A program made the position numbers and the translations under genes. Positions 34,589 through 41,665 of a stretch of DNA of 64,000 nucleotides are shown here, piece after piece. The DNA lies in NCBI GenBank assembly GCA_964016885.1, contig OZ024741.1, forward strand, positions 138,260,001 to 138,324,000, in the 5' to 3' direction. Every line of letters starts with the position of its first letter. Position 1 is the first letter of the stretch. The DNA is from Eledone cirrhosa (taxonomy: Eukaryota). The notes under the pieces were generated by a model that saw only the letters and a list, made by a program, of their open reading frames with translations, was not told the DNA's origin and did not search any database.

Positions 34589-34637
34589 TTGCTTACAATT
34601 GTTTCCTCCAAACCGAGGTTTGGATTCTTCGGAGCAA
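34589..34637 (-). ncRNA. Hammerhead ribozyme, CCGAAGA core variant (antisense arm copy)
   Basis: Exact reverse complement of 35528-35576. Confidence 0.7.
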
Positions 34638-35527
34638 CTATTTATAACATACTTGACCTCCTTTTCAACCCAAGAGACATAAAATATATACACCCTTGTA
34701 CTTCTCAATGGACAACTCTCTAACCTATAAATGGGTAACATACTCTAGATATTAGTTATAACTTCACATGATAGGCACCTATTTGAATCACCATTAATGT
34801 AGTTTAGCATAGTAATGTAACTAAGATAACTAGCTAGTTACCTCCCTTTACGCATTAATTCCCCTTAGTCATTCAGGCACTTCCGGAATCTGGACAGTAT
34901 GATATATTAATTAAGAACCGACTGGATACGGTTTATAGCTTGACTATATGCTGAACCACCGTGAATTATACAATAGACGCGTGTTCTCTATATATATATT
35001 GCGTCTCATGGATTATGTGAGTGGTGGTGTGAGCAAGGACAGTGGTACGGCCTTGCCTACGATACAATAAGGTTTATAGTATGTTGAAGGTTTTTGATAT
35101 TTTGGTGTTTCCCCGCATCCGAGACTGTATATCATACAGATGTATGAGTATAAATGACTTAATAATTCAGCCTACATAATAAGATTGATTGCCAGCTTCA
35201 ACTGCCTGACCCTGCAAATATCATTCTGACGCACTCTAATCATGTATAGATAAGACACGCGTGCATGCTACACGGGAGATTGTTTCATACACTGACTACT
35301 CTAAGCTTTCCTCTTGCTTTATCTTCATAGACTGCCAACGCTTCATGTTTATCTTTATTTTCACTCTTATTTTCACTCTTGTTTTTATTTTATTTTTATC
35401 CTGTAACCTTTATATGTAAATTGCCATGCTATATCATTTGATGAATGTCACCCCACTGTTGATCAATATGCGCATATGTTTTATGTGTCTCTTGGGTTGA
35501 AGAGGAGGTCAAGTATGTTATAAATAG

Positions 35528-35576
35528 TTGCTCCGAAGAATCCAAACCTCGGTTTGGAGGAAACAATTGTAAGCAA
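35528..35576 (+). ncRNA. Minimal type I hammerhead, CCGAAGA core variant
   Basis: Helix I UUGCU/AGCAA; CCGAAGA; helix II uccaaacc/gguuugga; GAAAC-AAUU-GUA with palindromic ACAAUUGU. Confidence 0.75.
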
Positions 35577-35809
35577 ATAAATTACTTAAACTGAACTTTG
35601 ATTATTGTAATCTCTATATAACTGCTCTGTAAAACAACTGATGTTATTACATTGAGCTATTTATCTTACTGGTAATAGGATAGTAATTAATGACTATCTC
35701 TAACTATTTAGTGTTTGTGTATATATAATATATTACCATTAAAGGTTTTATTGCATACATAACCATAAATAGTACCCTTAATACTATATATATATATATA
35801 TATATACAA

Positions 35810-36160
35810 TCGAATAAGGAAAAGCGAAGTAGTTTCAGATGTTCAAGTCCTTTAATAATAATTGTTTCTACTTTTGGCACCAGGCCAGCAATTATACCAG
35901 TGCATTACTGGTACTTTATTTTATCGACCCCGTAAGGATGAAAGGTAAGTCCTTTAATAATAATGCTGTGATATATATTTCAATGACGACACTGGCCACA
36001 CTGTTCTGTGTGCGAGTGTCGTGTCATCACCAGACAGCTTGTTACATAATAAGGTTGTTTCCGAGGCAATCCAAATTGAATCGACATGGGAACGGATGAA
36101 GTTCGTGCTTTTTGGTTTATTCATCCGTTCCATTGAATTGCATCAATGTTTACCCTAATA
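35810..36160 (-). mobile_element. Third, short copy of the 4968-7171 PLE family with mutated hammerhead (35965-36038, core CUGGUGA) and a truncated SINE (35863-35946)
   Basis: Matches 5046-5240; TSD AAGTCCTTTAATAATAAT at 35845-35862 and 35947-35964. Confidence 0.85.
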
Positions 36161-37899: not shown

Positions 37900-38780
37900 G
37901 CCTTGGCTGTCATACCTTCGGGGACAGGATTATGCAAAGCAATACTCCCACACGGTGTGATGACGGCAACCTCGAGACAGGGCAGCCTCCGCGAATCCCC
38001 ACCGACCAGAAAGGACCCAAACCCAACCGTTTAGTAGCATAACTAGACATTGACGGATAATCTGTTATAATACGCCACATTCCGTAGGACTGTAGACGAG
38101 CCTGGCAGGTTTACTTTATAGGGCGTTAGATAGATGCTTTCCAAGGACTCATAGATACCACAGAATAGGCACACTGTGAAGCTCTCGTATTCAACCACAC
38201 TCAAATTATGCTGGCACATAGCTAGAACCTACTAATACTAAGGAGTTTTGGGTGTGTGATTACTAGTACTACAATGAATCAATCTATTTTTGTAGGGTGA
38301 GCGCTGACCCCGGCACCGCTCCGGCGAACACTGATAGCCTTTGGGGACCCTCTGAGAATTTCTTTGACCGACGGCTCCGGCCTATCCGTTGGCCATCGTA
38401 CAGCCGATGCACTGGTGCAGACAAGATTATGCAACTGCAGGAAACTTGATTGATGTCTGCTTGGTAATAAATGCCTGGTAAAAAATATAGTTTACCAGTG
38501 CAAGGTAACTCGCTGTATAGGAGCGGCGTCAAATAATGTGAGAACAGGTAGTACAATCACACCACTCCTTAAAGAGGATACATAAACGAAAGAGCTGATA
38601 TGGAAGCCTAAGTTAGATAAGATACTGTACTCTTTGGATTGGTCCAAGATTCGCGAGGAACCCCCAGATGGAGGTGACACCTGCATTTCCAGTCTCTGCC
38701 TGAATGAGACCCTCGAGATACTCAGGGGGAAATAATTAACGGAAGAGCTGACATCTTTGGTGCTTGTCTGCACCTCGGAT
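37900..38780 (+). pseudogene. Decayed PLE linker + GIY-YIG endonuclease
   Basis: Manual translation IICYNTPHS...CFPRTHRYH..TVKLSYSTT, CNCRKLD*CLLGNKCLVKNIVYQCKV, LIWK..LDW, SLCLNETLEIL..GACLH; colinear with 60982-61780. Confidence 0.8.
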
Positions 38781-40247
38781 GGAAACGTTTCTCAAGCTAT
38801 ATGGGAGGCAACTCTATATCTTTGCATTCTAGGTGGACTCATCCTCCTGTTTCCATCCATATTCATCTCTAAGTACTTTCTGGTGCCGCTCTAGGCTTTT
38901 AGTAGGCCTAAGACCTTGTCACTCTACATTAGTTATATGAATTTACCAGTAGACGCAGCTTAAGGCTAAATTAGGCACACTAGAACCACTGCTGGTTTCC
39001 CATACGTACATTTATTCAACCTCCTCTCCTGGATAGTTAACGTAGAATTCTTCAATGTAGTACTATTTTACCTACTATAAAGGCTAGTTAGCTATACCTT
39101 TTTTAATCCCCACGTCCTTAGTAAAAAAAAGCCCATACTTCAGGATCGGTTTGGAGATCTTTGGCTTTCAACTTTTTTCGCGCGCATTACTTAAGAGCAC
39201 TGAATGTAGTTCTTACTAACGACTTTTCATTAACTATATTAATACTAGGAAACCCATTTATATCCCCACCGCTACAATTTTAAAGGTGCTACGTTTTTAG
39301 TACCAGTCCACTATTGGGGTCGATTCTTTCTCTAATGAAAAAGTCAGTTGTGGAGAGGGTTGGGTTCCGTTAGGTTGAAAGGTGCAGTAGACACCCCCGT
39401 TTGGCAGTGCCTCTACGACTCCACAATAAGTCGTGGGATCTTTATCGTTTATCCATACGCTTTTAATATATTTAATATCTGTACGACTATCAATTTTGTG
39501 ATATATACTATATTAGGTGTTGGCATATTCTGAGATTGGTATATTTAACATATCTCACCTTTTGTCTTTTTAGTCTGTTTTACTTTGCATCTATTCCTAT
39601 ACCTGTTATGTATTACTTCTTTTATGTATTTCTTTGAATGTATTCCTTATGTCTTGTTACTAGTATCCATTCGATCGTCAACGTTAATTGTATTTTATTT
39701 CATTTCTATTTGTCAATCTTGATTCTCACTTTTGCACCCCGCCTCACTAATATGTATCATATAGTAGCTAAACTGGGTTTATTATCACTACTGCTGCTGC
39801 TGTTACAAGCAGTGATATCGATTCCTACTGCCTTATCCTATTTAATACATAAGCTTATTGTACGGCCTTGACTGTTATTGTTGTTGCAGTAGTTAAATCT
39901 ATCTCCCAAATCTATCGCATTTTAAAGTTGATCATTATGTAACTCTCTATCGTAAAGCTATTTACAGATAAGCTGAATTTTGTGTGGGTGGACGATCTCA
40001 GACATTGATTCACAATGGAATTGAGAAAGGCTAGTGGGATATAGGGTTGGAACTATCTCTGAACAATGGCTAGATGTCTTGTATACGCCTTGAGCTGATG
40101 ATCTGAAGCTGGTTATACTAACTCATATGTCAGGTGGGCTTTCAGAGGGCAACATCAATAACACTAAAAAGCCGACGGCGTATCAATGAAAGGAAACAAC
40201 ATGAATCATTTTTATTTTTATTCATATAACCTTTTGTTCACTTACTA

Positions 40248-40306
40248 GCTGTCTGACGAGGCCATAAATGTTACATAACAGTTCTCATCGAAATATGTGT
40301 AACTGT
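40248..40306 (+). ncRNA. Partly decayed hammerhead (similar to 53345)
   Basis: CUGACGA 40253-40259 ... GAAA 40290-40293, UAUGUGUA; imperfect helices I and II. Confidence 0.55.
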
Positions 40307-40722
40307 AAAGAATACATGCGTTAAATTTTAACCTGTTAACTTCTGCACCATTATTATATATGTACTCCAGAATATGCAGGCCTGCATGTATACATCGTCG
40401 AGTTCTCTGTGTAGCGAACACTACTGTTAGTTGTTTAACTAACACATATTATTCCAAATATACATATATGTATGTAGTATGTTTATATATATATATATAT
40501 ATATATATATATATATATATATATATATATATATATATATATATATATATATATATATATATATATACACACACATATATATATATATATATATATATAT
40601 ATATATATATATATATATATATATATATATATATATATATATATATATATATATGTATGTATATATATATATATATATATATATATATATATATATATAT
40701 ATATATATATATATATATATAT

Positions 40723-41665
40723 ATAGTATTAATTATACTATTTATGGTTATGTAAATACAAAAACCTTTTGCAGTTATATATATTTTTTATACAAACCCT
40801 AAATAGTGGTAGGCAGTAATATATTACTACCTTATTACCAGTAAGTTAAGTAGCTCAGTGTAAAAACATCAGATGATTTACAGAGCAGTTATATGAAATA
40901 TAAGAATCAAAGAACTGTTCAAAACATTTTTGTGCTTACAACTGTTTCCTCCAAACCGAGTATTCAATGTCGATTCTCGAAACGTAACAGCCTCCTGTAT
41001 TGAACTAAAGAATATCAGACTACGATTCTCTAACTGGATTGTCAAACGTTCAATATCGTATTGTCGTGGATTATGTGAGGGGCATATAATCTGAAAAATA
41101 CACTCCCCTGTCTATGAAAATGTCGAAGTACATGAAGTCCATATCATCCCTTCGCAGTGCATTTCCAATACTTTTAATATTTTTAATGCTTGCACTAGTT
41201 TTAATGCTTATATCATTTCTCCACACACATACTATAACAATCATATAAAGAATTTGCCACCAGATCAACCAACCTAACACTCTTGTTTACCTACCTAAGT
41301 GCTTCTACTACACGTAACTCTCTGCCACACTATATAAACAAGACGCACCTGCTTGCCACACATATAACATTTGCACTATATAACAGCTTATTTTCATGTT
41401 GTATTTTAACCTGTATTTTTGATTTTTGATTGTACCTTTTAATATGAATGTAATCTCTAAGTGTCTACTGCCACTCTAAATGCTGTAATGAATGTTGACC
41501 CACAATATTTGCATATGTATCTGTATGTCCCTTGGGTGAAAAGGAGGTCATATAACTGTCCATTCATTAATAAATTGCTCCGAAGGATCCAAACCTCGGT
41601 TTGGAGGAAACAGTTGTAAGCACAAACATGTTTTGAACAGTTCTTTGATTCTTATATTTCATATT
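40723..41665. mobile_element. Second locus of the CCGA-hammerhead PLE family, fold-back (arms about 40891-40960 / 41595-41665); hammerhead 41575-41622 (+)
   Basis: 40723-40960 is the reverse complement of 35545-35785; 41525-41655 parallels 35485-35610. Confidence 0.8.

What the first reader, a model, noticed from the sequence alone, without database searches (positions are those of the whole stretch)
34589..41622. Hammerhead family with C at position 4 (CCGAAG core) at two independent loci
Seen: CCGAAGA (35533 and its inverted twin at 34626) and CCGAAGG (41580) precede an identical helix II TCCAAACC-TC-GGTTTGGA and GAAAC-A(A/G)TT-GTA, closed by TTGCT/AGCA. The ribozyme segment is much better conserved between loci than its flanks. 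An unrelated motif at 34226-34313 also begins CCG. Inference: a natural U4C core variant (or a one-nucleotide-shifted core) was under selection while the element was active.
Basis: partly seen in the sequence, partly recalled or inferred. Interest (0 to 1): 0.7.

Follow-up and report, generated by a model that had tools for sequence, protein, structure and literature searches.

The report
Retrotransposon hammerhead with fixed C4 core
These motifs are the end pieces of a young, very common jumping gene whose self-cutting RNA (hammerhead) carries C instead of the usual U at one core position in about 3,900 copies; it is likely a natural slowed-down variant, but cutting has not been tested.

Summary
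Observation confirmed. The motifs are minimal type I hammerheads in the terminal repeats of a young Hydra-clade Penelope-like retrotransposon; intact copies exist elsewhere in the genome. C4 is the family state: 3,904 exact C4 matches against 29 U4 and 50 G5A, so U4 copies look like CpG decay, not reversion. Older subfamilies also have C4, while positions 7, 10.1, 11.1, 17 and loop II vary. That fixes the register and rejects a shifted core. Two copies are predicted to fold into the classic double hammerhead. Selection for C itself is not shown: one unchanged site is compatible with drift (P 0.17-0.43), the unrelated family at 34231 has C4 plus U6, and a third family has amplified A4. Position 4 looks relaxed in several lineages, while about 87% of hammerheads sampled genome-wide (78 of 90) keep CU. 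Most copies were made from uncut RNA, with no clear pile-up of ends at the cut site. Best reading: a slow, probably protein-assisted dimer ribozyme. U4C is known from one viroid variant. I found it in no published Penelope-like hammerhead table, but those searches fixed U4 and one key paper was unavailable.

The parts
35528..35576 (+). Minimal type I hammerhead, family A. Core C3-C4-G5-A6-A7-G8-A9 at 35533-35539; A.G mismatch at 35540/35559; helix II 35541-35558; G12-A15.1 at 35560-35563; palindromic helix III half 35563-35570; predicted cut after 35571
34589..34637 (-). Inverted twin of the same hammerhead, identical over the motif; core 34632-34626
41575..41623 (+). Hammerhead of a second subfamily of family A; C4, rare G9, helix III palindrome with G.U pairs; predicted cut after 41618
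40932..40960 (-). Truncated inverted hammerhead copy (3' half only; breaks at the loop of helix II)
34685..35786 (+). Sense arm of 5'-truncated Penelope-like insertion 1 (3' UTR and terminal repeat, long 3' end running into (TA)n); 95% identical to ORF-bearing copy L069
34545..34690 (-). Inverted arm of insertion 1 (short 3' end, in a TA-rich tract)
40960..41664 (+). Sense arm of 5'-truncated insertion 2 (short 3' end into (TA)n); 84-85% identical to full-length copy L064
40723..40960 (-). Inverted arm of insertion 2 (long 3' end, abutting (TA)n at 40458-40725)
34227..34313 (+). Hammerhead of the unrelated Penelope-like family B; core C3-C4-G5-U6-C7-G8-A9 at 34231-34237, long helix II, predicted cut after 34309
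31837..34473 (+). 5'-truncated family B element (3' UTR and terminal repeat); insertion 1 sits in the TA tract just after it

Best explanation
These are hammerhead motifs in the terminal repeats of a young Hydra-clade Penelope-like retrotransposon, with C fixed at core position 4 in about 3,900 copies, and they likely work as a slowed, dimer-dependent self-cutting RNA. SHOWN: the element anatomy, the C4 frequency, and that most copies were reverse-transcribed through an intact ribozyme. PREDICTED: two copies in a tandem transcript pair through the palindromic helix III and form a double hammerhead that cuts after GUA. INFERRED: C4 weakens the uridine turn, so cutting is slow and probably needs the element's own RT-endonuclease protein as a folding aid, as shown for the anole element. 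Slow cutting is tolerated, perhaps useful, because reverse transcription starts 46 or 210 nt downstream of the cut site and must read through an uncut or re-joined ribozyme to rebuild the terminal repeat. Position 4 is best seen as relaxed, not as selected for C.
For: C4 3,904, U4 29, G5A 50 exact matches. U4 copies are scattered on the flank tree (18 changes, 11 forced by supported branches), and several have a C4 twin in the same insertion. Sister subfamilies: 930 matches; of the first 100 listed I count 89 C4, 9 U4, 1 A4, 1 G4. Across 11 subfamily representatives the core shows 0 changes while positions 7, 10.1, 11.1, 17 and loop II change 1-3 times each. 96% of 270 pair cells stay paired in 18 chosen copies, with a two-sided change in helix III. 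Cofolding two copies gives the double hammerhead as the lowest-energy fold for two of the three family A copies folded. Uninterrupted 832-aa frames lie in L062, L064 and L065, next to C4 hammerheads in direct repeats about 4.2 kb apart, with Hydra-clade motifs. 22 of 30 ORF-start copies extend upstream through an intact C4 core. U4C lowered in vitro activity yet allowed viroid infectivity (passage in PMC3088659). The anole element's hammerhead cut only with protein, and uncut RNA was the main template (PMC11167929).
Against: No cleavage data. In a pairwise mutagenesis of a type III hammerhead, all single and double mutants of the CUGA turn had low activity except the C3-G8 swap (PMC9901934 passage), so C4 plus the A.G mismatch could be nearly dead. 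5' ends at the cut site are near background: 42 matches against 26-36 expected, and 9 of 23 exactly at the cut against 5.1 expected (p 0.12). The core positions that look invariant were required by my search patterns, so subfamilies that lost them would be missed. The monomer is predicted to prefer a non-hammerhead rod, and one of the three family A copies cofolds into a non-hammerhead dimer.
Confidence: 0.6

Rival explanations
1. C4 is compensated: with the element's protein, or with contacts peculiar to these dimers, the C4 ribozyme cuts about as fast as a U4 one, so position 4 is simply neutral here.
For: C4, A4 and C4+U6 cores each amplified in different families. The C4 families do not form one RT clade (AU p 0.003). 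G5, G8, G12 and a cleavable position 17 are kept.
Against: Most hammerheads in the genome keep U4 (78 CU and 8 UU of 90 hits), which suggests U is generally favoured. Published mutants at this turn are slow. No clear excess of copy ends at the cut site.
Confidence: 0.2
2. The motif no longer cuts; the fold is kept as a dimerisation or protein-binding signal for packaging or reverse transcription.
For: 22 of 30 ORF-start copies read through the intact motif, and ends do not pile up at the cut site. Catalytic mutants did not affect insertion in vitro for the anole element (PMC11167929). The 10.1-11.1 pair varies freely along the lineage.
Against: Position 17 switches between A and C at subfamily level and not to G (1 G among 58 haplotypes), and position 7 varies while its neighbours do not. 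This is the pattern of catalytic constraint (hammerhead rules from established knowledge). U4C was viable in a viroid.
Confidence: 0.15
3. C4 is selected because it locks the monomer in an off fold (U2.1-C3-C4 pairing with G11.1-G12-A13).
For: RNAfold gives this rod as the lowest-energy monomer of the 35528 copy.
Against: Sister subfamilies have C4 with A or U at 11.1, so positions 4 and 11.1 do not covary. With only helix I flanks the energy gap to the hammerhead-like fold is 1-2 kcal/mol.
Confidence: 0.03
4. The core is shifted by one nucleotide, or C4 is post-insertion decay of a U4 family.
For: Only the look of the CC step in the window.
Against: C4 outnumbers U4 135 to 1 and is present in ORF-intact copies. 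The variable position falls at 7 in the unshifted register.
Confidence: 0.02

Closest known systems
Hydra-clade Penelope-like elements and their hammerheads (Craig et al. 2021, PMC8557442; section 11 and supplementary File S2 read)
   Same: C-terminal GIY-YIG-type endonuclease, RW(R/K), DKT, CxCX5C linker, CxxC and CxH motifs, (TA)n targets, tandem and inverted ends; type I hammerhead with palindromic helix III and often a mismatch at 10.1-11.1
   Different: All 26 Hydra rows of File S2 begin CUGA; this family has CCGA and an A.G mismatch. Unit length is about 4.2 kb against under 3 kb for most listed families.
Minimal hammerheads of metazoan Penelope-like elements (Cervera and de la Pena 2014, PMC4209133; text parts 1-2 of 4, supplement part 2 of 3)
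   Same: Short helix I, 7-bp helix II, dimer-type helix III, copies in terminal repeats and in opposite-strand pairs
   Different: The reported core variant is U3-A8. Every aligned example I saw has U4, and G10.1-C11.1 is described as highly conserved.
U4C hammerhead variant of a viroid (Ambros and Flores 1998, seen only as cited in Perreault et al. 2011, PMC3088659)
   Same: Same substitution; reported as much slower in vitro but sufficient in vivo
   Different: A sequence variant of one viroid. Here it is the fixed state of thousands of retrotransposon copies, in a minimal dimer-type ribozyme.
Poseidon element of the green anole, PAc (Frangieh et al. 2024, PMC11167929; parts 1-2 of 4)
   Same: Two internal reverse-transcription start points giving short and long 3' ends; uncut RNA as template; no reads ending at the cut site
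   Different: Different clade; no change at position 4 is mentioned in the parts read; its protein-assisted cleavage was shown at the bench, whereas nothing is tested here.

Membership tests
Type I minimal hammerhead ribozyme | Core C3, G5, A6, G8, A9, G12, A13, A14, A15.1-U16.1 and H17 around a three-way junction | tested here: met
   Present in copies 35528 and 34589; 41575 has G9. The search patterns required most of these letters.
Type I minimal hammerhead ribozyme | U at position 4 (CUGA uridine turn) | tested here: not met
   C4 in 3,904 vs U4 in 29 exact matches; filed as a variant, not a canonical member
Type I minimal hammerhead ribozyme | G10.1-C11.1 closing pair | tested here: not met
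   A.G here; other mismatches or wobble pairs in sister subfamilies. Mismatches are also common in published Hydra-clade rows.
Type I minimal hammerhead ribozyme | Helices I and II, and a palindromic helix III able to form a dimer | tested here: met
   96.3% of 270 cells paired, slid controls 27-44%; double-hammerhead cofold for 2 of 3 family A copies. Covariation is modest and the 18 rows were hand-picked relatives.
Type I minimal hammerhead ribozyme | Match to an Rfam hammerhead model | tested here: not met
   No match at the gathering score or at E up to 10 for 34150-35700. The U4 motifs in the window were also missed, so this says little.
Type I minimal hammerhead ribozyme | Self-cleavage 3' of position 17 | not testable with these tools
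   No assay possible; the genomic end test was inconclusive
Hydra-clade Penelope-like element | Single ORF, RT followed by C-terminal GIY-YIG endonuclease | tested here: met
   832-aa frame with YRDD and VIY...YVG. The query itself has no Pfam hit; homologue P0053 hits PF01541.
Hydra-clade Penelope-like element | RWK and DKT motifs, CxCX5C linker, CxxC and CxH motifs | tested here: met
   RWR, DKT, CNCRANRTC, CNLC and CQH read by eye in alignment A1 against the description
Hydra-clade Penelope-like element | Insertion into (TA)n; pseudo-LTR with tandem and inverted copies and alternative 3' ends | tested here: met
Hydra-clade Penelope-like element | Placement inside the Hydra clade in an RT tree with reference sequences | not tested
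   My trees held no named Hydra, Poseidon, Neptune or Nematis references

The most novel reading that the evidence does not exclude
In these retrotransposons the element's own RT-endonuclease protein has taken over the job of the hammerhead's uridine turn. Position 4, and even 6, can then drift (C4, A4, C4+U6 in separate families) while cutting remains, gated by the protein. That would make this a naturally protein-dependent hammerhead that cuts only inside the transposition complex.
Probability: 0.2. Interest if true: 0.68.

Novelty: new variant of a known kind. Interest (0 to 1): 0.42.

Why it matters
What hammerheads do for Penelope-like elements is still open. This family gives a natural test set from one genome: ORF-intact young elements with C4, a sister family with U3-U4-A8, a family that went from U4-A6 to C4-U6, and one with A4. 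Comparing their cleavage with and without the cognate protein would show whether these elements need a fast, slow or silent ribozyme. Published searches that fix CUGANGA would miss several thousand such motifs in this genome, so lists of ribozyme-bearing or ribozyme-less elements may be incomplete. If the motif is only a relaxed, slow variant, it is a modest extension of known biology.

Tried and rejected
Shifted core: rejected. C4-G11.1 compensatory pairing in an off fold: suggested and one U4/A11.1 copy, rejected when the sister subfamilies proved C4 with A11.1. A third C4 family (L093): rejected; of 26 motif copies read, 23 have U4, 1 C4, and 2 other changes. My first census (69 hits, 0 C4) demanded 4 pairs in helix I and missed C4 copies; it was redone with 3 pairs (90 hits, 2 CC, control 4), and it still misses some C4 copies that one search found in L107 and L132. 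In the first RT tree L233 was wrongly labelled as a U4 family; it is a family B RT and was left out. Pile-up of 5' ends at the cut site: not significant; 7 of the 30 loci examined were dropped first (4 internal changes, 3 double-counted junctions), and the background rate rests on only 29 copies. RNA evidence: no RNA holder listed; contigs of four runs laid gave nothing on expression or ends. Pfam and PDB sequence searches of the ORF gave no hit. Metagenome pattern scan: 0. I first took the element for Penelope/Poseidon by recall; the motifs fit Hydra. Papers not held: Lunse et al. 2017 and Ambros and Flores 1998.
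Full report
OBSERVATION. The window lies in a 3.0-Gb animal genome, G000. The 48-nt segment is 46 of 48 identical between 35528 and 41575, while four flank comparisons give 60-79%. A fourth, truncated inverted copy lies at about 40932-40960. Helix II is predicted as 7 bp with a four-base loop. Rfam has no hammerhead match, but one search also missed the U4 motifs in the window.

THE ELEMENT. Both loci are 5'-truncated insertions with an inverted arm and a sense arm ending in (TA)n. I fetched 16 places chosen by hammerhead spacing. 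L062, L064 and L065 each hold an uninterrupted 832-residue frame next to C4 hammerheads in direct repeats about 4.2 kb apart. The protein has no Pfam or PDB hit. It has 365 homologues at E up to 1e-10 among 7,992 scored, two of the listed ones named from a cephalopod, and one of five tested hits the GIY-YIG family. The alignment shows RWR, DKT, YRDD, CxCX5C, CxxC and CxH, which match the Hydra-clade description in Craig et al. 2021. The 3' ends fall 46 or 210 nt downstream of the predicted cut, like the two start points described for the anole element. Forty of 40 scored hits to the ORF start are 100% identical, so the family is young.

HOW COMMON IS C4. Exact pattern counts: C4 3,904, U4 29, G5A 50, reversed controls 0. 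C4 and G5 form a CpG, so both rare classes are what deamination would give. U4 is not enriched; it is somewhat rarer than G5A (p 0.024). On a flank tree of 119 rows with position 4 masked, U4 needs 18 changes, 11 of them forced, and several U4 copies have a C4 twin. In a set chosen by ORF start, not by core, all 22 copies that span the motif have C4. Sister subfamilies with another loop II give 930 matches; among the first 100 listed I count 89 C4, 9 U4, 1 A4, 1 G4.

REGISTER AND SELECTION. Among 58 haplotypes position 7 is A, U or G, position 17 is nearly always A or C, and 10.1, 11.1 and loop II vary. This fixes the register and rules out a shift. Over 11 subfamily representatives (flank tree length 0.84 internal, 1.76 total) the core shows no change; ten neutral sites would do so with P about 2e-4 or less, but one site with P 0.17-0.43. 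The core letters were required by my patterns, so that figure is an upper bound on the evidence. Pairings are kept in 96% of 270 cells, with a two-sided change in the helix III palindrome. Cofolding yields the double hammerhead for two of three family A copies. The ribozyme fold was conserved; selection for C in particular is not shown.

OTHER FAMILIES. The motif at 34231 belongs to an unrelated Penelope-like family B (RT 47-52% identical). It has 1,005 pattern matches; of the first 100 listed I count 91 C4 (89 with U6), 8 U4 (4 with the canonical A6) and 1 G4. An otherwise canonical pattern with C4 gives 266 matches against 84 for the control and shows more C4 families. One of them has 82 matches, of which I count 50 A4, 23 C4, 8 U4 and 1 G4. 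In an RT tree the A families are sister to a U3-U4-A8 family (99/96), and a clade of all C4 rows is rejected (AU p 0.003). Position 4 thus changed at least twice, though I cannot give the direction. These remain a minority: in 800 kb taken at fixed spacing, 90 hammerhead-like hits were 78 CU, 8 UU, 2 CC and 2 other, with 4 control hits.

IS IT CUT. Of 30 ORF-start copies, 22 read through the intact motif; the other 8 end at -3, +6, +19, +31, +87, +131, +187 and +209 from the cut. A genome-wide pattern for ends within 2 nt of the cut gave 42 matches against 26-36 expected from a uniform rate estimated on 29 copies. Of 30 loci examined, 23 were kept; 9 end exactly at the cut against 5.1 expected (p 0.12). 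There is at most a weak hint of cut templates.

MECHANISM. Shown: anatomy, frequencies, read-through. Predicted: dimer fold. Inferred: a tandem transcript carries two or more motifs that pair through helix III; C4 and the A.G mismatch slow the cut; the element's protein probably helps folding, as for the anole element, whose ribozyme cut only with protein and whose catalytic mutants still inserted in vitro. Reverse transcription starts downstream of the cut site and must copy the whole motif, so slow cutting costs little and may preserve templates. That U4 stabilises the turn by hydrogen bonds is recalled knowledge, supported by the mutagenesis passage. Rivals: full compensation (0.2), dead but structural (0.15), off-fold lock (0.03), shift or decay (0.02).

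WHAT IS KNOWN. A search for hammerhead with U4C returned one paper. It cites a viroid U4C variant with much lower activity in vitro but enough in vivo (PMC3088659, passages and section 8); the original was not held. Cervera and de la Pena 2014 (text parts 1-2, supplement part 2 and a supplement search) show only U4 cores in what I could read; figures held as pictures were not seen. All 26 Hydra rows in Craig et al. File S2 have U4, but that search fixed CUGANGA. Searches (listings) turned up no C4 Penelope-like family. I also read passages of PMC6765202, PMC6155905, PMC3376415, PMC7151607 and PMC9901934, and part 1 of bioRxiv 10.64898/2026.07.22.740005. Lunse et al. 2017, on small hammerhead variants of these elements, was not held and could already include C4. 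Earlier unchecked scan notes mention A4 families in this genome and a CCGAUGA core in another genome; they are leads, not support.

VERDICT. A real, family-wide U4C variant of a known ribozyme type in a known element class, with a clean experimental handle. New variant of a known kind; interest 0.42.

Noticed in passing
window 34227-34313; L216-L224: Family B has two core changes (C4 and U6) in its most amplified subfamily, while U4-A6 and C4-A6 relatives also exist; it is a stronger departure from the consensus than the finding itself.
   Followed up: partly
L324-L332 (G000:C1): A small hammerhead family with A at position 4 in 50 of 82 matches, alongside C4 and U4 relatives.
   Followed up: partly
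L107:7083, L171:5892: Penelope-like family with a U3-A8 core, sister to family A in the RT tree.
   Followed up: partly
window 2169, 53350, about 40252, about 41820-41860 (-): Further hammerhead-like motifs of other families with U4, two intact-looking and two decayed.
   Followed up: no
L334/L335, L356/L357, L359/L360: Head-to-head inversions in which both arms end within 2 nt of the predicted cut site; possibly snap-back at a cut template end, not significant in number.
   Followed up: partly
L064:880-900 and 1040-1065: Both 3' end points of family A are followed in the template by a similar short motif, a candidate signal for the internal start of reverse transcription.
   Followed up: no
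L154; L228: Tandem arrays of 310-nt units each with a U4 hammerhead, retrozyme-like (11 units in L154).
   Followed up: no
window 21567-24524 and 25442-26848: A 985-aa RT-type ORF of a non-LTR retrotransposon and a broken tandem copy.
   Followed up: no
window 45924-51172: LINE-like element with an ORF1 and an endonuclease-RT region; direct repeat of its 3' end at 44645-45430.
   Followed up: no
window 60907-61792: Fragment of another Penelope-like ORF (thumb and endonuclease region).
   Followed up: no
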